Shown here one piece after another: positions 24,855-40,979 of a stretch of 64,000 nt of DNA (position 1 is the stretch's first letter; every line of letters begins with the position of its first letter). This stretch comes from Candidatus Eiseniibacteriota bacterium (GTDB taxonomy: Bacteria; Eisenbacteria; RBG-16-71-46), in contig JANLWX010000231.1 in the NCBI GenBank assembly GCA_031364845.1, positions 23,531-87,530 of the forward strand, in the 5' to 3' direction. The notes beneath the pieces are model-generated. The model had not been told where the DNA came from and searched no databases. It saw only the letters and a list, made by a program, of their open reading frames with translations. A program made the translations under genes and the position numbers.

Positions 24855-27800
24855 CTACTGAACGACCACGAACCTCCCCGTGACGCGTTCCGTCCCCTGG
24901 CTCAATCGCGCGAAATACATTCCGGGCTTGAGCGATCGGGCGCCCGCGATCCGCACGTCGTGCGTGCCGGCCGACAGCCCTTCGAGTGCTTCGCGCACGA
25001 AGCGGCGTCCGCCGAGGTCGTAGATCTCGAACGTCGCCGCACCCGCGCGCGGCAGCGCGAGTGATACGAGCACGCCGCGCGATCCGGCATCCCACCGCAC
25101 TGCGGACATCGCGAGCGCGGTGTTGCCGGGGACCGAAACCGACGTCTCGCCCACGAACACCTCTCCCGACGCGAGCATGATGCCGAGCCGGTAGGCGTAC
25201 TGCGCGCCCGGAACCACGTCGTAGTCGTCGAACGTCAGACGATGCGACCCATCCGGCACCAGCCGCGCCACGTGCGTCCATTCGCGTGCACCCTCACGCC
25301 GGTAGACCGCGGCTTCCGGAACGTCGGCGGTCATCCACACCACGCGCACCCGTTCGGAGTTGGCCTCGGTGGTCACGACCGATGCCTGCACAGGAGTCGA
25401 GCTCACGCAGTTGGCAATGCCGCCCTGCCACGAGATGTAGTTGCGATTGATCGGCATCGTGAGCTGCGGGTCATAGTTGAGTTGGAAGGGCTGGAACAGC
25501 TGAATCTCGTTCAGCAGGAGGCACATGGGTTCCGAGCAACCGGCGCAACTGCCGCTGCCGGTGGTCTTGGAACGCAGGATATTTGCCTTGAACGCGTAGT
25601 ACTCGGTTTCGGGATCGACCGGCGCCGCACTTTCGATCGGAACCGCCGCCTGGATCCGGAACCGCGCACGGCTGGGCGAACCGAAACCGACATCGTAGGC
25701 ATAACCGCCTGCCGCCTGTCCGGCGAAGTAGTCGACGCACGTGAACGGCCCGGAAGTGAAGTCGAAACTGGTCGCGAGCCCGGTGGTCGAGCGGCATTGC
25801 TGGCTGCCATGCCGCCACCAGTCGGGCAAGGTGGCCGTATTGGACCGGATGTCGATCTGGGCGGACATGCCGGCGAACTCCGTGACGTTCGGCGGAGGAA
25901 TGAATGATGCGATCATCGCGAATGCGGAACCAGAGTTCGCATCGCAGGCGAACGTCATGTTCTCGGTGCCCGCGGTTCCGCAGTCGCTCCACGACAGGTT
26001 GATGCCGCCGTTCGTGATCATCAGGGGCCCCACACGGAACGTGCTGTCCGAGACCGCGGTCCCGCCGGGATTGGTGACGCTGATCGGACCGTTCGTGGCT
26101 CCGGTGGGAACGGTGGCGGTGATTCTCACATCGGAAGAAATACTGAACGGCGTCGGAAGTCCGTTGAACCGGACGGACGACGTGTACAGGAAGTTCTCCC
26201 CCGTGATGGTGATCGTGCTCCCCACCGGCGCCTGGCGAGGCGAGAAACTCGCGATGCGCGGCGCGACGATGAACGTGCCGGCCGACGTCATCGAACCGTT
26301 CGGTGTGCTGACTTCGATGAATCCCGTGCGCGCACCGGCCGGGACGGTGGCGTGAATCACCGAGTCCGATACGGTCGTGAACAGAGCCGGCCGCAAGTCG
26401 AAGGTGACGAGCGAAGTTGCGGTGAAATGCAGTCCGCGGATCGTGACCACGGTGCCGGGTGCTCCCGCGCCCGGCGTGAACGACTGAACGTCCGGCAGCG
26501 GACCCGGAACTCCCTGCCACGCGATCGTCTTGTGATCGAGTGCGGTCGTGATCACCGGGTCGTACTTGAACTCGGGCGTCTGGAACAACTGGATCTGCCG
26601 CAGCGTGAGGCTCACGGGAACGTTGCACCCCGAGCAACTGCCCGTACCCGTCGACTGCGTGCGGAGGAGATTCACCTTGAAGGCGTGGTACTCGACGGCC
26701 GGATCCAACGCGACGCGATGGGAGTTCATGAATCCGAACACTTCGATCCTGGCCATGTTCGCGCCGCCGAATCCGACCGTGTAGTCGAGGGTGCCCGTCA
26801 CCAGTTCCTGCCAGGGGTTCACGCAGGAGCCCGGGGCCAGCGAGAAGTCGAAGTTCGACGTGAGGTCGCCGGTGCCGCGGCAGAACGAGGAACCGTGCTT
26901 CCACCACTCGGGCAGCGCGGAGCCCGACGCGATCCGGATGTCCCCGGAGAGACCGATCATCTCGGTGACGCCCACCGGCGGTTTGAACGATGCGAACGCC
27001 GTGACCGTTCCCGTGTTCACGTTGCAGGCGAAGTTCTTCAAGTCGGCGCCCGCCGCGCCGCATGCATCCCACGACAGGTTGATGAATCCCGGCGGCAGCG
27101 GCCCGACCGTGAACGCGATGTCGGAGATGTCCTCACCCGCGGGATTGGCGACGCGCAGCGGACCGCTGGTGGTGCCCGCCGGCACCGGGGCCGTGAGCAT
27201 CGAGTCGTTGACGATGGTGAACGTGGCGTCGAGGCCGTTGAATTCGACGTCGTTGACGTTGATGAAGTTCACGCCGCGCACGGTGATGACGTGACCCACG
27301 GGTGCCTGCCGCGGCGCGAACGACGTGATGATCGGAGCGACGCTGAACAGATCGTCGCTGACGTCGCTGCCCTGAATCGTCGCGACCGTGATCCGGCCGG
27401 TGCGCGCGCCGGGCGGTACCGAAGTCGCGATGGTCGTGTCCGAGGTCACGGAGAACGACGCACTCAACGTGTGAAAGAGCACGGAATTCGTTCCGGTGAA
27501 GTGCGCGCCGCGAATCGTGACCGGCTGTCCCGGGGCACCCGCCATGGGTGAGAACGAGTCGATCACCGGCGGCGGACCCGGCTCCGCCTGCCACGCGATC
27601 GCGTTGCGAAGCTGCGGTGTCGTGATCACGGGATCGAAGCCGAGTTCCGGGGACTGCATCAGCTGTAGCTGCTCGAGCGTGAGCGAAACGGGCACGTTGC
27701 ATCCGGAGCACGCACCCGCTCCGGTCGTCGCGGTACGAAGCACCTGCACCTTGAACGCGTTGTACTCGCGATCGGACTGGGTCGCGGTGCGATTCGACGG

Positions 27801-30800
27801 ATCCATCGCACACACGACCTGCAGCAGTGCCGTGTTGGGGCCGTCGTAGGCGACTGAATACGAGGTGTTGCCTACCGCCTGGCCCTGCCACGGATCGAAG
27901 CATGGTGAGCCTGCGAAGCTGAAGGTTGCCGGCAGAGCGGAGCTGGCGCGGCATTGCGCGAAGCCGTGTTTCCACCAGTCGGGAAGCGCCTGGGACGATG
28001 CGATGCGCACGCGGGCGGACATTCCGATCAGCTCCTGCACGCCGGGAGGCGGCACGAACGAGCCGACGAACGTGAACCCGGTTCCCGTGTTCGCGTCGCA
28101 CGCGAACGTCTTGAGCGCCGTACCCGCCGTACCGCACAGATCCCACGACAGGTTGAGCAAGCCCGCGGGCAGCGGTCCGACATGGAACAGACTGTCTGAG
28201 GTGTCGGAGCCGCCGATATTGGTCACGGTGATCGGTCCGTCGGTCGCTCCCGCCGGCACCGGCGCCTGCAGGGTCGAGTCGTTCTGCACGGTGAACGTGG
28301 CGGTGGTGCCGTTGAAGCTCACGGCCGTGGTCCGCGTGAAGTTGAAGCCGCGGATCGAAAGCGGATAGCCCACCGGGGCCGATTGCGGAAGGAAGTTGCG
28401 CAGTTCGGGCGCCGCGATGAACATGCTGTCGCTGGTGTCCGAACCCTGGATCGTCGCGAGGTGAATCGGTCCGGTGCGCGCACCGGCCGGCACGACCGCC
28501 TCAACCTTGGTGTCCGAGGTCACCGTGAACGACGAGGCCGCAAGCGTGTGAAACCTCACCGACGAAGCGCCGGTGAATCCGCTGCCCGAGATCGTGACGA
28601 CCTGAGCAGGACCGCCGCCCGGCGGTGTGAACGCCGAAATCTGCGGAACCGGTCCCGGTGCTGCCTGCCACAAGGCGACCACTCGAGCGGCCGGTGTGGT
28701 GAGGATCGGATCGTATCCGAGTTCGGCACTCTGGAAGAGCTGGATCTGATTGAGTGTGAGGCCTACGGGGAGGCTGCAGCCCGCGCATGCGGCGGCGCCG
28801 GTCGTGTTCGCGCGCTGGATCTGCGCTTTGAACGCGTAGTACTCCGTCGAAGGACTGGCCGCTCCCGCCGAGGCCGGCAACGAACACGAGATCTGGAGTC
28901 GCGCGCTGTTCGCGCCATAGAACCCGACGCCGTACGAGGAACTCCCGGTCGCGAGCCCCTGCAGGATGTCGGTGCACGACGTGGGTCCGCTGCGGAAGTC
29001 GAAGTTCGTCGTGAGCCCTGTGGTTCCGCGGCACTGGCCGGGGCCGTGTTTCCACCAGTCGGGCAGATCACCGGTCGAAGCGATTCGGATCTCGGCCGCG
29101 AGGCCCGTGAGTTCGAGGACATCGGGCGGAGGAATGAACGATCCGACCAGCGTGAACGCGCTGCCCGTATTGAGGTCGCAGGCGAACGCCTGGGTCGCGG
29201 TCCCCGCGAGTCCGCAGTCGTTCCACGACAGATTGATGGTTCCCGATACGATCGGACCGACATGGAACGGGTCGTCGGAAGTGTCGGTGCCACCGGGGTT
29301 GGTGATGGCGATCGGACCGTCGGTTGCGCCAACGGGGACGATGGCATAGATCGTCGTGTCCGAATGCGTCGTGTACGACGAAGCGAGTCCGTTGAACCGG
29401 ACCGACGTCGAGCGCGTGAAGTTGGTGCCGCGGATCACGACCGTGTGCCCCACCGGGGCGGTGTGCGGCAGGAAGAAACGGATGTCGGGCTTCACCACGA
29501 ACAGACTCTCGGATGCCGCGGTTCCGCGGGATGTGGTCACCGCGATCGAGCCGGTGCGGGCGGCGGCGGGGACGGTCGTCGAGATCCGTGTGTCGGAGTC
29601 GACGGTGAAGGAAGCGGACACGTCGCGGAACCGAACCGCGGTGGCTCCTGTGAAGTACTGGCCCTGGATCGTCACCGGGATGCCGGGGGCCCCGGCGAGC
29701 GGCGTGAACGAATCGACCCGCGGCAACGGCCCGGGCTCCGCCTGCCAGAACGCGCTGTTGCGATGGAAAGGAATCGAGATCACCGGGTTGTAACCCATCG
29801 CGGCCGGCTGAGTGAGCTGGATCGTGTGGAGCGTGACGCGCACCGGCGTCTCGCAGCCATCACACTTCCCGGAGGAGTAGCTCTTGTTGCGCGTGATGTT
29901 GACCTTGAACGCGTAGTACGCCGTGTTCTGATCGACCGGAGTGTTCAGGGTCGACGAACTCGAAATTCTGATGCGGGCCGTGTTCGCGCCATAGAAGCCC
30001 ACATCGTAGCTGAAGCCCCCGCCGTTGATCTGGTCGAGCCACAGGTTGTCGCAGGAATAGGGTCCGCCGAACGAGCTGAAGTTGACGTTGAGCCCGGCCG
30101 AGCTGCGACACTGACCGGATCCATGCTTCCACCAGTCGGGCAAGGTGGTGGCATACACGCCGAGATCGGAGATCGCCCCGTTGAGCTGGCTCACGCCGGG
30201 CGGAGGCACGAACGACCCGATCAGCGTGAACGGCGTTCCCGTGTTTCGATCGCACGCGAACGTCTTGATCGCCGTTCCCGCGAGTCCGCAATCGTCCCAC
30301 GACAGATCCAGCGCGCCCGCCGCGGGGCCCACGCGGAACACGGAGTCGGATGGAGTCGTGCCGCCGGGATTCGTGATCGAGATCGGCCCGGTGGTGGCCG
30401 CGCCCGGCACGACCGCGAGGAGCAGCGAATCGCTGTCGATGGAGAAGCTCGCCGTCGTCCCGTTGAAACGCACGGCCGAGACGTTTGCGAAGTTGCGGCC
30501 GGTGACGAGGATCGAGGCACCCGCGGACGCCTGCTTCGGCAGGAAGTGGCGGATCGCAGGGGCCACCGTGAACGAGAGGCTGGTGCCGCTTCCGAACGCC
30601 GTATCGAGCGTGATGGGCCCGGTCTCTCCCCCGACGGGAACGGTCGTCGTGACCTGAGCGTTGGAGACGATGTTGAACGCCGCGGCCACGGTCCCGAAGC
30701 GTACGGACGTGGTGCCGAGCAGGTTCGAGCCGTTGATCGTCACGACCACGCCCGGCGCTCCGGCTGCAGGCGAGATCGAACCGATCACCGGCGGTCCCGG

Positions 30801-31499
30801 TGTGACCGCCTGCCAGTACACGGTGTTGCGCGTGAGCGGTGTCGTGATGATCGGATCGTTCGCACTCGATAGCGGTTGGAACAGTTGAATGCTCTGAAGC
30901 TTGAGGCTCACCGGCGCGCTGCACCCGGCACAACTGCCGGCACCGGTCGTGTTCGAACTCAGCACGCGCAGCTTGAACGCGTAGTATTCCTGCGCCGCGG
31001 AAACGGGCGCGGCTTCATTGGAAGGAATCGCGCACTGGACCAGGACCTTGGCGGTATTGGGGCCGTACGCCGAGATCGTGTAGAGAAGCCCCCCCACTTC
31101 GCTGCCCGGCCAGAAGTCCGTGCATGCAACCGGCGAGAACGCGAAGTCGGGTGTGAGCGCGCTCACGCCGCGGCACTGTCCGCTCCCGTGCTTCCACCAG
31201 TCCGGAAGGCTGGTCGAGGCCACCCGCACCTCGGCCGACATGCCGAGCAGGTTGTTGATGCCCGCGGGCGGAACGAAAGACGCCACGGCGTTGAACGCCG
31301 GCCCGGCGTTCGTGTTGCAGGCGAACGTCTTCAACTGCGAGCCTGCAGCGCCGCAATCGTCCCACGAGAAGTTGATTCCGGCGGCATCGGCGGAGGGAAC
31401 TCGAGAACTCATGAGCAACGCGGCGCAGCAGATGAACGCGAATGTCCGGCGTAGCAACTCGGCGAACGCGACGGGACGAGACGAGCGAGGGCGGATCAT
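24855..31499 (-). CDS. giant secreted repeat protein (2214 aa): signal peptide, 5 x [novel Cys-rich domain + 2 IPT/TIG], 1 x Cys-rich domain, FN3-like domain, Por/T9SS-type C-terminal sorting domain
   Basis: Track ORF 2214 aa. The N-terminus MIRPRSSRPVAFAELLRRTFAFICCAALLMSSRVPSADA is a signal peptide. Six copies of a ~195-aa module begin (I/L)(N/D)LSW(D/N/S)(D/L/A)CG, with 8 conserved Cys. IPT/TIG pairs follow (P.I.SFSP..GAPG..VTI.G..FTG...V.F ... VP.GA.TGPI.VTNPGG). The C-terminus FEIYDLGGRRFVREALEGLSAGTHDVRIAG...GMYFARLSQGTERVTGRFVVVQ matches the Por secretion tail / FlgD-Ig-like CTD consensus. Confidence 0.85.
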   Translation of the reverse strand: MIRPRSSRPVAFAELLRRTFAFICCAALLMSSRVPSADAAGINFSWDDCGAAGSQLKTFACNTNAGPAFNAVASFVPPAGINNLLGMSAEVRVASTSLPDWWKHGSGQCRGVSALTPDFAFSPVACTDFWPGSEVGGLLYTISAYGPNTAKVLVQCAIPSNEAAPVSAAQEYYAFKLRVLSSNTTGAGSCAGCSAPVSLKLQSIQLFQPLSSANDPIITTPLTRNTVYWQAVTPGPPVIGSISPAAGAPGVVVTINGSNLLGTTSVRFGTVAAAFNIVSNAQVTTTVPVGGETGPITLDTAFGSGTSLSFTVAPAIRHFLPKQASAGASILVTGRNFANVSAVRFNGTTASFSIDSDSLLLAVVPGAATTGPISITNPGGTTPSDSVFRVGPAAGALDLSWDDCGLAGTAIKTFACDRNTGTPFTLIGSFVPPPGVSQLNGAISDLGVYATTLPDWWKHGSGQCRSSAGLNVNFSSFGGPYSCDNLWLDQINGGGFSYDVGFYGANTARIRISSSSTLNTPVDQNTAYYAFKVNITRNKSYSSGKCDGCETPVRVTLHTIQLTQPAAMGYNPVISIPFHRNSAFWQAEPGPLPRVDSFTPLAGAPGIPVTIQGQYFTGATAVRFRDVSASFTVDSDTRISTTVPAAARTGSIAVTTSRGTAASESLFVVKPDIRFFLPHTAPVGHTVVIRGTNFTRSTSVRFNGLASSYTTHSDTTIYAIVPVGATDGPIAITNPGGTDTSDDPFHVGPIVSGTINLSWNDCGLAGTATQAFACDLNTGSAFTLVGSFIPPPDVLELTGLAAEIRIASTGDLPDWWKHGPGQCRGTTGLTTNFDFRSGPTSCTDILQGLATGSSSYGVGFYGANSARLQISCSLPASAGAASPSTEYYAFKAQIQRANTTGAAACAGCSLPVGLTLNQIQLFQSAELGYDPILTTPAARVVALWQAAPGPVPQISAFTPPGGGPAQVVTISGSGFTGASSVRFHTLAASSFTVTSDTKVEAVVPAGARTGPIHLATIQGSDTSDSMFIAAPELRNFLPQSAPVGYPLSIRGFNFTRTTAVSFNGTTATFTVQNDSTLQAPVPAGATDGPITVTNIGGSDTSDSLFHVGPLPAGLLNLSWDLCGTAGTALKTFACDANTGTGFTFVGSFVPPPGVQELIGMSARVRIASSQALPDWWKHGFAQCRASSALPATFSFAGSPCFDPWQGQAVGNTSYSVAYDGPNTALLQVVCAMDPSNRTATQSDREYNAFKVQVLRTATTGAGACSGCNVPVSLTLEQLQLMQSPELGFDPVITTPQLRNAIAWQAEPGPPPVIDSFSPMAGAPGQPVTIRGAHFTGTNSVLFHTLSASFSVTSDTTIATSVPPGARTGRITVATIQGSDVSDDLFSVAPIITSFAPRQAPVGHVITVRGVNFINVNDVEFNGLDATFTIVNDSMLTAPVPAGTTSGPLRVANPAGEDISDIAFTVGPLPPGFINLSWDACGAAGADLKNFACNVNTGTVTAFASFKPPVGVTEMIGLSGDIRIASGSALPEWWKHGSSFCRGTGDLTSNFDFSLAPGSCVNPWQELVTGTLDYTVGFGGANMARIEVFGFMNSHRVALDPAVEYHAFKVNLLRTQSTGTGSCSGCNVPVSLTLRQIQLFQTPEFKYDPVITTALDHKTIAWQGVPGPLPDVQSFTPGAGAPGTVVTIRGLHFTATSLVTFDLRPALFTTVSDSVIHATVPAGARTGFIEVSTPNGSMTSAGTFIVAPRIASFSPRQAPVGSTITITGENFLYTSSVRFNGLPTPFSISSDVRITATVPTGATNGPISVTNPGGTAVSDSTFRVGPLMITNGGINLSWSDCGTAGTENMTFACDANSGSAFAMIASFIPPPNVTEFAGMSAQIDIRSNTATLPDWWRHGSQQCRSTTGLATSFDFTSGPFTCVDYFAGQAAGGYAYDVGFGSPSRARFRIQAAVPIESAAPVDPETEYYAFKANILRSKTTGSGSCAGCSEPMCLLLNEIQLFQPFQLNYDPQLTMPINRNYISWQGGIANCVSSTPVQASVVTTEANSERVRVVWMTADVPEAAVYRREGAREWTHVARLVPDGSHRLTFDDYDVVPGAQYAYRLGIMLASGEVFVGETSVSVPGNTALAMSAVRWDAGSRGVLVSLALPRAGAATFEIYDLGGRRFVREALEGLSAGTHDVRIAGARSLKPGMYFARLSQGTERVTGRFVVVQ
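25150..31390 (-). repeat. six divergent tandem ~1.07-kb coding repeats inside the giant gene
   Basis: The protein-level periodicity of ~355 aa is visible as recurring nucleotide blocks encoding LSWDDCG, LPDWWKHG.GQCR, EYYAFK and IQL.Q. Confidence 0.7.
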
Positions 31500-33737: not shown

Positions 33738-34099
33738 GCGAGGCCGCGGATTAAGCCGCAAGCGCGACACGCTGTCAACTCTGACTTGAAAAATCCTTGA
33801 CGTTGGTGCGGTACGGGTTCATGTTCGTTCGCGTCGAGGCCGCTTCAAATTCTGCGCTCATCCCCCGAGTGCACCACCGCCCCCCGGTGGCCATCTTCGC
33901 GCTCGACGCGAAGCGCATCGATGCTGGTTCTGACAGATCTCGAGAGGTCGCCGTCGAGATGCGCCGCTTCTGTCTCCACATCACGCTGCTGAATTCGAGC
34001 GGTTGCTCTAAACGACCCGATTTCGAGCCCTGACGACAGAACCGCACGCATGATTCGAGGCGCGGTCGCTTCCGGCTGCGCCTGAACCGGAGGTGCATC

Positions 34100-34930
34100 T
34101 TGAGTCGAGTCGTTCGCAGTTCAGTAGTGGCGGTTCTGGCAGCTTGCGGCGCGTTATCGATCCTCGCATCCACTGTGATGGCCGATGCCTTCGCGCGCTC
34201 GAACCGATCGAATCGCAAGGTTCACGTGTCGGCGATCGCTCACGATGGAGGGATTCCCTGCTCCCAGGACGCGAGCCAGCAAGGGGGAACGCTGACGCGT
34301 GTGTGCTTCAGTGCCGGCGGGCTCGGCGGCTCCAACGTCGGCTACGCAAGCGCGAGCGCCGGGCCGGGCTTCGCGCATTCGGTGAACTACACCAAGGGCA
34401 CGGCGAGAGCCGGACTCGGCGTTGCTGCGGCGGGCGACACCGCGGTCAGCGATTCGTTCCTCGTGACCTACTCGAACACGGCCGTCAACCAGACGACGAT
34501 CGTCATCAACGGACGCCTGTTGGTCGATGGCACCAACATGCTGAACTCGACCAAGGGGTTACTGCGGGTGCTCGTCTATCGCGATTCGGCTGCCGCCGAT
34601 TCCGACCCCGCCCACGTCGGTGCGGGTGCGGGAACTCTGTTCAGCGGAAAACTGGAGGTCACGAAGGCGTCGCATGTGGCTTCCGGCGGATTCAGCAGCG
34701 GAAACTTTGCGGCGATCGCCGGAGCGAACCGCTATCAGGTGTCGGCCAGCAATCTCTCGAAGGTCGTTTCCGGTGTGGTCGACACCTCGAAGGTCGTCGT
34801 CATGGTCTTCAACGATTCGGTGTCGGACGTTCCCATGAGCTCGCCGCTCGTCGTGTTGCTCGGCGCGGGGCTGCTGGGCGGTAGTGCGCTATGGGCGATG
34901 CGCCGGCGCAAGTCGGCCGGTCTCGCCTGA
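34100..34930 (+). CDS. secreted protein with PEP-CTERM-like sorting tail
   Basis: Track ORF 276 aa with a signal peptide ([28 protein letters not shown]), a Gly/Ser/Ala-rich beta-rich body, and the C-terminus ...[35 protein letters not shown]. That tail is a degenerate (V)P(E)P motif, a TM helix and an RRRK cluster. Confidence 0.55.
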
Positions 34931-37163: not shown

Positions 37164-37616
37164 CTACTTCTTCTTCGCCGTTTTCTTCGCCGCCGCCGAA
37201 CGCGTCGATTTCACGCGCGTGTACGCCGCGATCGTCCGCGCGCGAAATGCCTGGTGCGCCTCTACCATCTTTTCGAACTGGTAGAGGTAGGTCGGACGGA
37301 TGTCGCCGCGCGCTTCCTCGACCCAGCCCTTGCAGCGCTCCCACGTCACGATGTCTTCGCCGGTGTGATCGAAGAACAGCTCGGCGTGCAGCACGCCGCG
37401 GTTCACGAGCGTGGCCACCATCTCCCAGTAGGACGTCGTCATGCGGAAGTGGCGGTCTTCATCGGTGTGCGACAGATAGCGCAGCTTGATCTCCATCCAG
37501 CCGCTGGGCTTGAAGTCGGTGAGGAACCACTGGCGCGCGCGCCGCAGTTCCGGATCGCGCCGCATCTCGTACAGGCGGAGCAGCAGCTCCGCGTCCGCGT
37601 GACTCGGGTTTCGCAT
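37164..37616 (-). CDS. hypothetical protein with Lys-rich C-terminal tail
   Basis: Track ORF 150 aa. Its composition is not GC-artefact-like (many W/Y/F/H), and it ends AAAKKTAKKK. The stop abuts the aroC start. I recognise no family. Confidence 0.5.
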   Translation of the reverse strand: MRNPSHADAELLLRLYEMRRDPELRRARQWFLTDFKPSGWMEIKLRYLSHTDEDRHFRMTTSYWEMVATLVNRGVLHAELFFDHTGEDIVTWERCKGWVEEARGDIRPTYLYQFEKMVEAHQAFRARTIAAYTRVKSTRSAAAKKTAKKK

Positions 37617-37697
37617 GAGTGATCCTCGGAGTGAGGGTTGAGTTCAAACGTCTGACGGGTACTTCCAACGGAACTGACGAACGATGCGGTCGCGTGC

Positions 37698-38195
37698 TCA
37701 CGGCGCGCGAAAACGAATTCTTCCCTGGGCGTCCCACGCCGTGATCGTTCCCGCGCCGTCCTCGCGCGCGCCGATCACGACGCTCGAACCGTCCTTTTGC
37801 CTGCCCACTGCGAGTTCGGACCGGCGCGAACCGACCAGCGAAGCGAGCCCGGTGCCGTCCGGTCCTTTGAGTGTGAGATGCGCGACCCCGTTCTGCTGTG
37901 CTTCGAGCAGCACGGCACCCGTCGCGCCCGCGCGGCCGAGCACCAGCCGGATGGTCCCGTTGCGATCGACCTCCATGCCGCCCACCGGACGGCTGTCCGG
38001 ATCACGCAGGAGAATACGATTCGCCTCGATCACATCGAAACGCCCGGTCGTCGCGGGAACCAGCGAGCGTCCGCGCGGCATCGCCAGCGTCGCCGCCATG
38101 GTGGCGATCGCCACGAACATCGCGACCACCGCGATGCCGCGCGCGCTCTGGTTCTGGCGCTCGAGGGCTTCGACTCGTTCCACGAGGATCTGCAT
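37698..38195 (-). CDS. hypothetical membrane-anchored protein
   Basis: Track ORF 37698..38315. I chose the internal ATG (MQILVERVEALERQNQSARGIAVVAMFVAIATMAATLAMP...), which gives a short coiled coil, a single TM helix and a ~110-aa beta-rich periplasmic domain. Confidence 0.4.
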   Translation of the reverse strand: MQILVERVEALERQNQSARGIAVVAMFVAIATMAATLAMPRGRSLVPATTGRFDVIEANRILLRDPDSRPVGGMEVDRNGTIRLVLGRAGATGAVLLEAQQNGVAHLTLKGPDGTGLASLVGSRRSELAVGRQKDGSSVVIGAREDGAGTITAWDAQGRIRFRAP

Positions 38196-38220
38196 TTCCG
38201 GATTCACGGGGTCCTCCGCA

Positions 38221-39203
38221 TCAGCTGCCGAGCCATTTCCGGGCGGCGAGCGACAGTCGCTCGCGACCGAGCAGATAGAGCCATGCCGCGCTCGCGGCCA
38301 CCAGCCCCGATACACGGATGACGGCGTTCGCGAAGCGTGCCGCCTGATCGGCGTCGGCGGACGACATCATGACTTTCAACGCGGCCACCAGCGACAGTAC
38401 TTCGATTCCGAACAGCAGCGGGATGCCGATCGCCGCCGCGCTCAGGCGCCGCGCGCGCGTTGCCCACGCGCTCGCGAGACACAGTGCGACGAACACGCCG
38501 ATGTCGAACGGATAGAACAGCTCGAGGTCGACGATCTCGATCTCGCTTCCACGCGGTGCCGCGATGCGTGCGCCGACCGCGGCCACGGCGTGTTCCCACG
38601 ACGGATGCAGGTGCCACGCCACGAAGAACGCGAGCGTGGCCCACGCCATGAAGCGCAACAGGAACTTCACGCCGCCGCCGGCTTGCGAGTGGAAGCGGCA
38701 GGTCCGATCCAGCGCAGCCACAATGCAAACGTGGCGAACAACACCAGCACGGTTCCCGTCTGCCACAGATACACGTGCGCAAAGTCGAACCATGCAGGGC
38801 GCCAGATCAGGATCTGGATCAATGCAATGATCCGCACGGTGTTGAATAGATGGATGACGATTGCGCCGAACAGGAGGCCGAGCGCTCGCTGGCGCCATCC
38901 CGATGGGAACGCGAGCACCACCGCCGCGAAGATCAGGTAGGGAATGTGCGGGCTGCAGTCGCTCACGATGCTGACCCCCTGCCCGCCCGCGTAGATCGAA
39001 TCGCCGACGCGCCGGACTTCCTGCCGCGTCAGCCGGAATGCCTGCTCGACCGTCCCCACCGTGATCGCGATGCCGAATCGCTCGACGCCGGGAAAACGGC
39101 TGAGCACGAGCAGCGCCACTCCCCAGTAAGCCACACACAGGGCGAGGAAGCGCAGCACCGGACTCTTGGAGTTCGTGGGAAGCGGCTTGGGCTTGCGGCT
39201 CAT
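38221..39203 (-). pseudogene. polytopic membrane protein, possibly exosortase (EpsH) family, split by a frameshift in a GGC repeat
   Basis: Two overlapping minus-strand ORFs, 38667..39203 (178 aa) and 38221..39252, cover this region. Only the 3' ~150 aa of the second looks coding. The hydrophobic pattern continues across the junction (...LVLFATFALWLRW in the first frame, then VKFLLRFMAWATLAFFVAWHL... in the second). The shift lies within CAAGCCGGCGGCGGCGUGA near 38667-38700. Multi-TM profile and a DCSP/NTVR region give weak support for the exosortase call. Confidence 0.35.
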
Positions 39204-39380
39204 GATCGATGGTAGGGTGAAGGGTGTGTTGCGAGGCTGTCGCGAACTGCACGCGTCGCCATGGATGTCACGATGTGTCGCGAGGCCGCCGGCGGCCGAG
39301 CGTCATTCGGCGCGAGGTTACGCCCGCCAGCCACGCGCGCCAAACTCGAAGCGCGCGAATTCCATGATCCGGGAGCTGTG

Positions 39381-40979
39381 ATGCCGCCACGACCCGCCTC
39401 TCCATCGACGCGCACCGTCACGTTGTTGATCGCCGCCGGCTTTGCGATCCGGCTGTGGGTCGCGATGCGCGCCGGAATCATCGAACACGACGGCGCCTAC
39501 TACGCCGGACTGGCCGCGGCGCTACTGCGTGGGGATACCGCACACGCGTGGAGCACGGTGTGGCCTCCGCTCTATCCGGTTCTGGTCGCGATCGCTGCAT
39601 GGCCGTTCGCCTCCGCGCAGTCGCTGACTCCCGAGCGTCTCGAGATTGCGGCACGGCTGGTCTCGGTCGTCGCGGGAACCATTGCACTCGCGCTGCTGCA
39701 TCGCTGGGCGCATCGCAAGGCCGGTGAGCGCGCCGCACTCGTGACGCTCGGCGTCGCCGCGTTCCACCCGCGGCTCGTTCAATACTCGGCGAGCGCGTTG
39801 ACCGAGATGACGTTCATCGCGCTGCTGCTCGCCGGCCTCACACTCATCGCGTCGGGTGACGATGAGGAGGGTCAACGTCCGCCGGGTGCCGGCACCGATC
39901 TCGCCGCGGGTGCCGCGTTCGGTCTCGCTTCGCTCGCCCGTCCCGAAGGCATCGTGCTCGCCGCGGCGGTGGCGATGGCACTCGCGCTGCGCGGAGTGCG
40001 CGCCGCGCGGCCGCGGCTGAGGCTCGCGTTTCTGCTCGGCGTCATGGTGACCGTGTTGCCGTGGGCCGCATATCTCAACGCTCAACTGGGCCACGTGTCA
40101 CTCGGCGAGAAGGGAGCGTACAATTTCTGGCGCGAGTTCAAGCTGGAGTATCGCGCGCACTTTGGTGATCCGCCGGGTCTCTCCGAGCGCGTGTTCGAGA
40201 GCCCGGAACTCGCCGCCTCGATCCCCCCCGCGCCAGTGAACGTCGGGGGATTCGTGCGTGCGGAGCCGGGGCTCGTGATGTCGCGATCGATCGGGCGGCT
40301 GTGGCGCATCGTCTCGCAATCAATGCCGCAGGCGTGTTATCCGGTGTGGTTCGCGTTCGCGATCCTCGGCATTCCGCTGCTGACCCGGCGCGAGTGGTGG
40401 CCGGCCGCGGCGATGCTGGCGGCACTTCCGCTCCTCTACGCTCCGTTCTCGTCGGACCGGCGTTTCATGGTGCCGGCCGTCCCGCTGCTGCTCGCCCTCC
40501 TACCCGCCGGGATCGAACGCGTGGCCGCGTGGTTCGCACCCGTGGCCCGCCGCGGGCTGGTTGCGGGAGCGCTCGCATTGGCCCTCGCGTTCGCGGGACT
40601 CGTCTACACGATGGTCCATCCGCTCATGGACGAAGCCCCCGAACATCGCGAAGCCGGTCGATGGCTGCGGGCCGCCTGGCCCGGGCTCGCGACCGAGGCC
40701 ACCGCGCGGCCGGTCGTCATGTCGCGCAAGACGTGGGTCGCCTTCTACGCCGGCGGGATCATCGCGGAGCTGCCGGAAGGCGGCATCGATTCGGTGCTGA
40801 GCCGCGCGCGCCGCAAGCGCGCCGACGTGCTGGTGGTCGACGAACGCTGGGCGGCGCCGAATCGTCCGGAACTCGCACCGCTGCTCGATCCCGCGCGCGC
40901 GCCCGCATCGTTGCGCGTGTTGCACATCATCACGTCTCCGCGGCGGCTGGTGCTCTACGACCTGCGCGGGGCGCGCTGA
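39381..40979 (+). CDS. GT-C fold glycosyltransferase (ArnT/PMT-like, GT39/GT83 family)
   Basis: Track ORF 39261..40979. I chose the ATG at 39381 (MPPRPASPSTRTVTLLIAAGFAIRLWVAMRAG...). It has ~11 predicted TM segments and an early loop with HDGAYYAGLAA typical of the PMT_2/ArnT family. Confidence 0.6.
   Translation: MPPRPASPSTRTVTLLIAAGFAIRLWVAMRAGIIEHDGAYYAGLAAALLRGDTAHAWSTVWPPLYPVLVAIAAWPFASAQSLTPERLEIAARLVSVVAGTIALALLHRWAHRKAGERAALVTLGVAAFHPRLVQYSASALTEMTFIALLLAGLTLIASGDDEEGQRPPGAGTDLAAGAAFGLASLARPEGIVLAAAVAMALALRGVRAARPRLRLAFLLGVMVTVLPWAAYLNAQLGHVSLGEKGAYNFWREFKLEYRAHFGDPPGLSERVFESPELAASIPPAPVNVGGFVRAEPGLVMSRSIGRLWRIVSQSMPQACYPVWFAFAILGIPLLTRREWWPAAAMLAALPLLYAPFSSDRRFMVPAVPLLLALLPAGIERVAAWFAPVARRGLVAGALALALAFAGLVYTMVHPLMDEAPEHREAGRWLRAAWPGLATEATARPVVMSRKTWVAFYAGGIIAELPEGGIDSVLSRARRKRADVLVVDERWAAPNRPELAPLLDPARAPASLRVLHIITSPRRLVLYDLRGAR

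What the first reader, a model, noticed from the sequence alone, without database searches (positions are those of the whole stretch)
38221..39252. Exosortase-like polytopic membrane gene disrupted by a frameshift in a GGC run, near a PEP-CTERM substrate
Two overlapping minus-strand frames, 178 aa and ~150 aa, each encode convincing TM segments. The hydrophobic pattern is continuous across a junction at CAAGCCGGCGGCGGCG (38667-38700). This is either a homopolymer or triplet-repeat indel error, or a genuine or phase-variable pseudogene. A PEP-CTERM-type protein lies 4 kb away at 34100-34930, so this could be its sorting enzyme.
Basis: partly seen in the sequence, partly recalled or inferred. 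Interest (0 to 1): 0.5.

Follow-up and report, generated by a model that had tools for sequence, protein, structure and literature searches.

The report
Mini-exosortase and partner gene, not frameshifted
What looked like one membrane-protein gene broken by a frameshift is two intact, overlapping genes: a small exosortase-type protein-sorting enzyme and its usual membrane partner, an arrangement conserved in related Candidatus Eisenbacteria genomes and therefore ordinary.

Summary
Two minus-strand reading frames (178 aa, 38667-39203; 149 aa, 38221-38670) both code for membrane proteins, and the frame changes at the GGC-rich junction.

The frameshift interpretation is refuted.
- The 178-aa protein aligns end to end with complete small exosortase/archaeosortase models, and its Cys/Arg/His motifs are invariant across homologues.
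- Its TGA stop overlaps the GTG start of the second gene (GTGA).
- The same pair, with an ATGA or GTGA overlap, occurs in 7 of 9 related loci even though the preceding sequence differs. One relative has a 25-nt spacer instead, and one has CTGA.
- 120 listed homologues of gene 1 are 139-212 aa. 54 homologues of gene 2 are 124-175 aa.
- Relatives of gene 2 weakly match NCBIfam "exosortase H-associated membrane protein".

So this is a divergent XrtH-like exosortase plus its partner, in a conserved cassette in Candidatus Eisenbacteria.

The nearby 276-aa protein does have a signal peptide and a C-terminal motif/TM/RRRK tail ([VL]PxxSP). It fails the PEP-CTERM model and is not a conserved neighbour, so calling it a substrate is plausible but untested.

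One distant relative carries an in-frame exosortase-partner fusion. A weak profile similarity hints that the partner may be a degenerate exosortase paralogue. Interest is low.

The parts
38667..39203 (-). Gene 1: a 178-aa XrtH-like mini-exosortase, complete. It has about 4-5 TM helices and invariant DCSPH (C83), FNxxR (N121, R124) and H143 motifs.
   Evidence: NCBIfam: exo_archaeo signature 46.5 bits (cut-off 23); XrtH 70.9 (cut-off 86), profile positions 48-155 of 158; ArtB model positions 1-151 of 156. Invariant columns in 79 homologues. AF2 model pLDDT 81. GC3 frame signal.
38221..38670 (-). Gene 2: a 149-aa four-helix membrane partner. Its GTG start overlaps the TGA stop of gene 1 by 4 nt. 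It is a distant relative of the 'exosortase H-associated membrane protein'.
   Evidence: 54 stand-alone homologues of 124-175 aa. 118 representatives in 1.84 billion proteins. NF041730 XrtH_assoc hits 8 of 16 family members, best 23.3 bits against a cut-off of 35; the window copy does not hit. AF2 pLDDT 89. It lies directly downstream of the exosortase in every locus.
38667..38670 (-). GTGA stop/start overlap (translational-coupling type junction). This is the supposed frameshift site.
   Evidence: Read directly from the sequence. The same [A/G]TGA junction is found in L001, L003, L005, L007, L008, L012 and L013 behind unrelated preceding sequence. L011 has a 25-nt spacer.
37698..38207 (-). 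Gene 3: a conserved protein of about 169 aa with one N-terminal TM helix and a beta-rich extracytoplasmic part. No family match. The start is inferred from the lengths of homologues.
   Evidence: A gene of 130-169 aa occupies the same position in L001, L003, L011 and L012. No NCBIfam or Pfam hit. One TM segment.
37164..37616 (-). Gene 4: a DUF4760 protein of 150 aa, the conserved last member of the cassette, lying upstream of aroC.
   Evidence: Pfam PF15956, 74.1 bits. Same position in L001, L003, L011 and L012.
39261..40979 (+). Divergently transcribed polytopic glycosyltransferase of the PMT_2 / GT-C type. It is a neighbour only in the closer relatives.
   Evidence: Pfam PMT_2 40.4 bits. Present in L001-L003. 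Not at that position in L012 or L013; the upstream gene in L011 has no Pfam record.
34100..34930 (+). Candidate, unproven substrate: a 276-aa secreted protein with a Sec signal peptide and the C-terminal tail [30 protein letters not shown].
   Evidence: It is the only ORF in the window with a motif/TM/basic tail. The orthologue P0176 keeps the tail (LPVTSP...RRRK) and the signal peptide. PEP_CTERM 8.1 bits against 16; only the TM and basic part matches LPXTG_anchor.

Best explanation
The locus holds two intact genes that are probably translationally coupled.

Gene 1 (178 aa) is a complete small exosortase of the XrtH-like branch. Exosortases are membrane-embedded Cys/Arg/His transpeptidase-type sorting enzymes. 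After Sec export, they are thought to recognise a C-terminal signal made of a motif, a TM helix and a basic cluster, and to cleave it off.

Gene 2 (149 aa) starts at a GTG that overlaps gene 1's TGA. It is a four-helix membrane protein that always follows this exosortase, and it is distantly related to NCBIfam's 'exosortase H-associated membrane protein'. It most likely forms a roughly 1:1 complex with the enzyme.

Together with a single-pass protein of about 169 aa and a DUF4760 protein, the pair forms a cassette conserved in Candidatus Eisenbacteria, next to aroC and the DAHP synthase gene.

Shown here: both genes are separate and conserved, family membership at superfamily level, intact catalytic motifs, and synteny.

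Inferred: enzymatic activity, complex formation, translational coupling, and the identity of the substrates.
For: Completeness of ORF1:
- It matches small-exosortase models to their C-terminal ends: XrtH position 155 of 158, XrtX 165 of 168, ArtB 1-151 of 156, exo_archaeo 95 of 97.
- C83, N121, R124 and H143 are invariant in 79 homologues.

Two separate genes:
- GC3 switches frame exactly at the GTGA overlap.
- The 120 listed ORF1 homologues are 139-212 aa and the 54 ORF2 homologues are 124-175 aa. None of them spans both.
- ORF2 lies directly downstream in all nine distinct related loci. There is an [A/G]TGA overlap in seven of them, behind unrelated preceding sequence, and a 25-nt spacer in L011.
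- The exact 178-aa and 149-aa products are recorded as separate genes on a 115,863-bp NCBI contig.

Identity of the partner:
- NF041730 XrtH_assoc is the only recurrent family hit for ORF2 relatives, in 8 of 16.
- ORF2 gives a confident four-helix model, pLDDT 89.
- A distant in-frame exosortase-partner fusion, P0282, ties the two functions together.

Taxon: all six genome hits are Candidatus Eisenbacteria MAGs.
Against: - The window's ORF1 scores below the curated XrtH cut-off (70.9 against 86). The window's ORF2 does not hit XrtH_assoc at all, and its relatives stay below the cut-off (at most 23.3 against 35). Assignment to the XrtH system proper is therefore not met, and only the superfamily or analogous system is supported.
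- No IPTLxxWG-CTERM or PEP-CTERM substrate was found in the window or in about 150 kb of related loci.
- No read data were available to examine the assembly directly.
- L009 has CTGA at the junction, so its ORF2 start is unclear.
Confidence: 0.93

Rival explanations
1. A single exosortase-like gene of about 330 aa was broken by an indel in the GGC run. The indel would be a sequencing or assembly error, a true pseudogene, or a phase-variable switch.
For: The two frames abut with no spacer at a GC-rich short repeat. One distant relative, P0282 in L014, does encode both parts in one 328-aa frame.
Against: - ORF1 already covers complete small-exosortase models.
- The same two-ORF layout and frame offset recur in every related locus examined, although the junction-proximal sequence differs. 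One relative has a 25-nt spacer.
- None of the 174 listed close homologues spans both parts, and only 1 of 118 family representatives is such a fusion.
- (GGC)3 is common in this genome, with the 10-mer occurring 13 times in the window, and triplet slippage keeps the frame.
- ORF2's N-terminus MKFLLRF..WATL is conserved from its start codon.
Confidence: 0.02
2. The two ORFs are joined during translation by programmed ribosomal frameshifting or stop-codon bypass at the conserved overlap. This would yield a fused exosortase-partner protein in addition to, or instead of, the separate products.
For: The overlap and the frame offset are conserved. A natural in-frame fusion exists in one relative, so a fused product is functionally conceivable.
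Against: - No conserved slippery heptamer or common sequence precedes the stop; the upstream 30 nt differ between loci.
- ATGA/GTGA overlaps are the commonest form of ordinary operon coupling (established knowledge).
- L011 separates the genes by 25 nt, in a different frame.
Confidence: 0.02
3. The 276-aa protein at 34100-34930 is a dedicated substrate of this exosortase. Its [VL]PxxSP-TM-RRRK tail would be the cognate sorting signal.
For: - It has a conserved Sec signal peptide plus a motif/TM/basic tail, both kept in the 86%-identical orthologue.
- It is the only such tail in the 64-kb window, and it lies 3.3 kb from the exosortase cassette.
- The VPMSSP motif fits the V-P-x-x-x-P pattern that I recall for ArtB targets. 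That is from memory. ArtB is among the models ORF1 matches.
Against: - No sorting-domain model is matched through its motif. PEP_CTERM scores 8.1 against 16, and LPXTG_anchor aligns only from profile position 9, that is, the TM and basic part.
- It has only two homologues, so no motif statistics are possible.
- It is on the opposite strand, separated from the cassette by four genes, and absent from the syntenic position in relatives, none of which has a tail-bearing neighbour.
- A plain type-I membrane anchor explains the tail equally well.
Confidence: 0.3

Closest known systems
Exosortase H (XrtH, NCBIfam TIGR04177) with its 'exosortase H-associated membrane protein' (NF041730)
   Same: - It is the best-scoring subfamily for ORF1 and for all 20 homologues tested. 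IMG names some homologues XrtH.
- The size is the same (about 160-180 aa) and so is the Cys/Arg/His motif set.
- It has a dedicated small membrane partner. NF041730 is the only recurrent hit for ORF2 relatives.
   Different: - The window's ORF1 is below the curated cut-off (70.9 against 86).
- ORF2 relatives reach at most 23.3 bits against 35, over only about half of the 184-position model, and the window copy does not hit.
- No IPTLxxWG-CTERM proteins were seen.
- The lineage here is Candidatus Eisenbacteria.
Exosortase F (XrtF, TIGR04128) plus the adjacent exosortase F system-associated membrane protein in Bacteroidota
   Same: The architecture is the same: a mini-exosortase immediately followed by a small polytopic partner of unknown role, with no obvious neighbouring substrate. 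The XrtF pairing is from my own knowledge of the TIGRFAMs descriptions and was not tested here.
   Different: ORF1 matches XrtF only weakly (34.6 bits against a cut-off of 90). ORF2 shows no hit to any XrtF-associated model.
Archaeosortase B (ArtB, TIGR04144) with VPXXXP-CTERM targets
   Same: ORF1 aligns over the whole ArtB model (positions 1-151 of 156). The candidate substrate tail begins VPMSSP, which fits V-P-x-x-x-P. The motif definition is from memory.
   Different: The score of 53.7 is far below the cut-off of 150. The organism is bacterial. No VPXXXP-CTERM model hit was returned for the tail.
EpsH/XrtA-type exosortases with PEP-CTERM substrates (PF09721, TIGR02595)
   Same: Same superfamily. 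PF09721 aligns to ORF1 residues 46-163, which correspond to the C-terminal catalytic half of the model (positions 129-249 of 254).
   Different: ORF1 is about half the size, and its PF09721 score is below the gathering threshold (18.7 against 25.7). No PEP-CTERM tails were found in the window or the related loci.

Membership tests
Exosortase/archaeosortase superfamily (TIGR04178 signature) | Score above the curated cut-off of the family signature model | tested here: met
   46.5 bits against a cut-off of 23, covering profile positions 1-95 of 97. All 20 homologues also hit.
Exosortase/archaeosortase superfamily (TIGR04178 signature) | Conserved catalytic-type Cys, Arg and His in TM-proximal motifs | tested here: met
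   C83 (in DCSPH), N121/R124 (in FNxxR) and H143 are invariant in 79 sequences. The catalytic role itself comes from the literature on ArtA and exosortases and was not tested here.
Exosortase H (XrtH, TIGR04177) | Score above the curated cut-off (86 bits) | tested here: not met
   The window protein scores 70.9 bits. XrtH is the best subfamily for all homologues (best E 3.6e-27).
Exosortase H (XrtH, TIGR04177) | Adjacent exosortase H-associated membrane protein (NF041730, cut-off 35 bits) | tested here: inconclusive
   A conserved adjacent partner exists. The window copy gives no hit. Relatives give 15-23 bits (E down to 4.4e-5) over profile positions of about 72-159 of 184.
Exosortase H (XrtH, TIGR04177) | IPTLxxWG-CTERM substrates in the genome | tested here: inconclusive
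   None were found in the 64-kb window or in about 150 kb of related loci.
PEP-CTERM sorting domain (TIGR02595), for the 34100-34930 protein | Match to the PEP-CTERM model (cut-off 16 bits) including a PEP motif | tested here: not met
   8.1 bits, E 5.2, with no stretch significant on its own. The motif is VPMSSP or LPVTSP, not PEP.
Frameshifted pseudogene | Orthologues encode one continuous ORF across the junction, and the halves are incomplete on their own | tested here: not met
   The nine related loci examined around close homologues all keep two ORFs. ORF1 covers the models end to end. Only 1 of 118 distant representatives is fused.

The most novel reading that the evidence does not exclude
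The conserved partner (gene 2, and by extension the 'exosortase H-associated membrane protein' class) may be a catalytically dead paralogue of the mini-exosortase itself, working with it as an obligate enzyme/pseudo-enzyme heterodimer.

Support:
- The two proteins share the same helix order.
- A profile-profile alignment places GxxVEIVsDCSPHxPYLIFAAVVLAFPsxWRQR opposite GSEIEIVDLELFYPFDLGVFVALCLASxWAxxxRR.
- hhalign gives a score of 26.1 (probability 12%). Reversed controls give about 11, and a local-shuffle null gives 14.1 +/- 3.0 with a maximum of 24.4.
- One lineage has fused the two in frame.
Probability: 0.3. Interest if true: 0.45.

Novelty: new member of a known kind. Interest (0 to 1): 0.15.

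Why it matters
The main value is as a correction. The locus should be annotated as two genes, not as a pseudogene or an assembly error. In high-GC genomes, a 4-nt stop/start overlap next to a short GC repeat should not be read as a frameshift.

There is also a minor point. Candidatus Eisenbacteria carries a lineage-specific XrtH-like exosortase, its partner and two further conserved genes, and these fall below the current curated model cut-offs, so the NCBIfam XrtH and XrtH_assoc models could be extended. The role of exosortase partner proteins is unknown in general, so the possible paralogy and the rare natural fusion are small leads for anyone working on exosortase mechanism.

Tried and rejected
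- **Literature.** The 2012 archaeosortase/exosortase paper could not be retrieved by DOI or by the PMC id I recalled for it. No paper links Eisenbacteria and exosortase. A myxosortase preprint does not mention XrtH, XrtX or XrtY.
- **Substrate hunt.** Scans for motif/TM/basic tails and for PEP, IPTLxxWG and VPxxxP motifs were run in the window and in the related loci. They found only the 34100-34930 protein.
- **Homologues of the 276-aa protein.** The search gave only two hits, so no motif could be defined.
- **Promoters and terminators.** The scan found nothing meaningful; one terminator-like hit inside ORF1 is within chance expectation.
- **Source contig.** Looking it up by the exact ORF1 product found no record.
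- **Other long relatives of ORF2.** P0184 (partner plus gene 3, 311 aa) has a junk-like linker and looks like a frameshift artefact in that contig. P0183 (552 aa) is the partner followed by an unrelated region. Neither was pursued.

Full report
**1. What is in the sequence**

On the minus strand there is a 178-aa ORF at 38667..39203. A second frame stays open from 39252 down to 38221.

Third-position GC identifies the coding frame in this 67% GC window.
- The ORF1 frame carries GC3 of 0.75-0.95 from 39200 to about 38700.
- The other frame carries 0.80-1.00 from about 38700 to 38230.

Both stretches are therefore genuinely coding, and the change of frame is real.

The junction reads ...AAG CCG GCG GCG GCG TGA in the first frame and GTG AAG TTC CTG... 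in the second. This is a 4-nt GTGA stop/start overlap.

The 'GGC run' is (GGC)3. The 10-mer GGCGGCGGCG occurs 13 times in the window, and slippage of a triplet unit would not shift the frame.

**2. Gene 1 is complete**

The 178-aa product passes the exosortase/archaeosortase signature model, with 46.5 bits against a cut-off of 23. It aligns to small-exosortase models up to their C-terminal ends:
- XrtH, profile positions 48-155 of 158
- XrtX, positions 68-165 of 168
- XrtM, positions 45-144 of 150
- ArtB, positions 1-151 of 156

Nothing is missing that a downstream extension would need to supply.

In 79 homologues, C83 (DCSPH), N121/R124 (FNxxR) and H143 are invariant. The C-terminal tail after the last helix is short, basic and variable in length, as expected of a true terminus. 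AF2 gives a helical membrane model with pLDDT 81.

**3. Gene 2 is a separate, conserved gene**

The 149-aa product has 54 homologues of 124-175 aa. A conserved N-terminus, MKFLLRF..WATL, begins at the start codon. AF2 gives a confident four-helix model with pLDDT 89.

A profile search of 1.84 billion representatives finds only 118 family members. Nearly all are stand-alone proteins of 145-190 aa.

The exact 178-aa and 149-aa sequences are on record as separate genes of a 115,863-bp NCBI contig.

**4. Comparative test of the frameshift**

Nine distinct related loci were examined (L001, L003, L005, L007, L008, L009, L011, L012, L013). They are 54-65% identical in gene 1. In every one, gene 2 lies immediately downstream, in a different frame.
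- Seven of them, like the window, have an ATGA or GTGA overlap, even though the 30 nt before it are unrelated and lack a GGC run.
- L011 has a 25-nt spacer between the TGA and the ATG.
- L009 has CTGA, so its start codon is unclear.

None of the 120 listed homologues of gene 1 (139-212 aa) spans both parts.

**5. What the pair is**

XrtH is the best subfamily for gene 1 and for all 20 homologues tested. However, the window protein is below the curated cut-off (70.9 against 86).

For gene 2, the only recurrent NCBIfam hit among relatives is NF041730, 'exosortase H-associated membrane protein'. It hits 8 of 16 relatives with a best score of 23.3 bits, E 4.4e-5, against a cut-off of 35. The window copy does not hit.

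The locus therefore works like the known XrtH-plus-partner arrangement, but it is a divergent lineage not captured by the curated models.

All genome-collection hits are Candidatus Eisenbacteria MAGs.

The pair is followed by a single-pass membrane protein of about 169 aa and a DUF4760 protein, then chorismate synthase, DAHP synthase and ThrRS. This order holds in the window and in the four loci whose downstream flank was listed: L001, L003, L011 and L012. A divergent PMT_2-type glycosyltransferase is present only in the closer relatives.

**6. Mechanism**

Shown here: two intact genes, intact catalytic motifs, strict adjacency, and a rare in-frame fusion. The fusion is P0282, 328 aa, with the XrtH-like part at residues 31-145 and the partner part at 221-315, and no stop codon at the junction.

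Inferred: the overlap couples translation of the partner to that of the enzyme, and the two form a membrane complex. From established knowledge of the family, the enzyme is thought to remove a C-terminal motif/TM/basic signal from Sec-exported proteins. The role of the partner is unknown.

**7. The supposed PEP-CTERM substrate**

The ORF at 34100..34930 encodes a protein with a Sec-type signal peptide. The signal peptide is conserved in the 86%-identical orthologue, whose contig has an ATG start further upstream.

Its tail is [30 protein letters not shown]. The orthologue has SELPVTSP...RRRK. It is the only such tail in the window.

It does not match PEP-CTERM (8.1 bits against 16). Only the TM and basic part aligns to the LPXTG anchor model.

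It has just two homologues. It is on the opposite strand and is not found at the syntenic position in relatives, none of which has a tail-bearing neighbour.

It may be a substrate (about 0.3), or it may simply be a type-I anchored protein.

**8. A lead, not a result**

hhalign of the two families gives a collinear alignment over about 142 columns, with score 26.1, probability 12% and E 0.0023. Reversed controls score about 11, and 40 local-shuffle controls score 14.1 +/- 3.0 with a maximum of 24.4.

The loop-plus-helix segment carrying the catalytic Cys in gene 1 aligns to the most conserved segment of gene 2. The helix order of the two AF2 models is similar.

This suggests, but does not establish, that the partner is a degenerate exosortase paralogue. 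Structural libraries that could test it were unavailable or uninformative.

**9. Verdict**

The frameshift, pseudogene and phase-variation interpretations are wrong.

This is an ordinary two-gene exosortase system, a new and divergent member of a known kind. Interest is low.

Noticed in passing
L014:5001-5987 (protein P0282): One distant relative, on an 8.8-kb metagenome scaffold, encodes the XrtH-like exosortase and the partner as a single in-frame 328-aa protein. There is no stop codon at the junction, and an in-frame GTG preceded by GAGG sits where the partner would start. It is either a natural Rosetta-stone fusion or an error in that contig, and it is a single observation.
   Followed up: partly
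window 38221-39203 (-), alignments A4 and A5: The exosortase and its partner show weak collinear profile similarity and the same helix order. The partner's conserved EIEIVDLELFYPFD..ALCLAS segment aligns with the enzyme's VEIVSDCSPHMPYL..VLAFP segment. The partner may therefore be an inactive paralogue.
   Followed up: partly
window 24855-31499 (-): A 2214-aa protein is built of five modules of about 430 aa. Each module contains a ...LPDWWKHGSGQCR... motif followed by IPT/TIG-like segments. Counterparts in relatives are annotated TIG and FlgD_ig (a 2221-aa gene in L003, and 1093-aa and 317-aa genes in L001). It is probably a large surface or secreted protein and has no exosortase-type tail.
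   Followed up: no
window 39261-40979 (+): A PMT_2 / GT-C family polytopic glycosyltransferase is transcribed divergently from the exosortase. It is conserved there in the closer relatives (L001-L003), and another PMT-family gene lies about 9 kb away in L013. Archaeosortase A systems are associated with an oligosaccharyltransferase, so a glycosylation link is conceivable but untested.
   Followed up: no
window 37698-38207 (-) and 37164-37616 (-): Two further genes always follow the pair. One is a protein of about 169 aa with one N-terminal TM helix and no family match. The other is a DUF4760 protein. P0184 looks like a frameshift-generated fusion of the partner with the first of these in another contig.
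   Followed up: partly
L009:9054-9095: In this relative the junction is CTGA rather than ATGA or GTGA. The partner gene would have to start at a CTG or at a GTG 37 nt upstream.
   Followed up: no
window 34034-34105 (+): Public gene calls start the 276-aa tail-bearing protein at an internal ATG (250 aa), which removes its signal peptide. A TTG at 34100, preceded by GGAGG, restores a conserved Sec signal peptide. The orthologue has an ATG further upstream.
   Followed up: yes
window 37684-38940 (+) and 38221-39252 (-): The long 'shadow' ORFs here are products of high GC content, not genes: a 418-aa antisense ORF, and the 343-aa ORF that extends upstream of the real 149-aa gene. GC3 supports only the two genes described.
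   Followed up: yes
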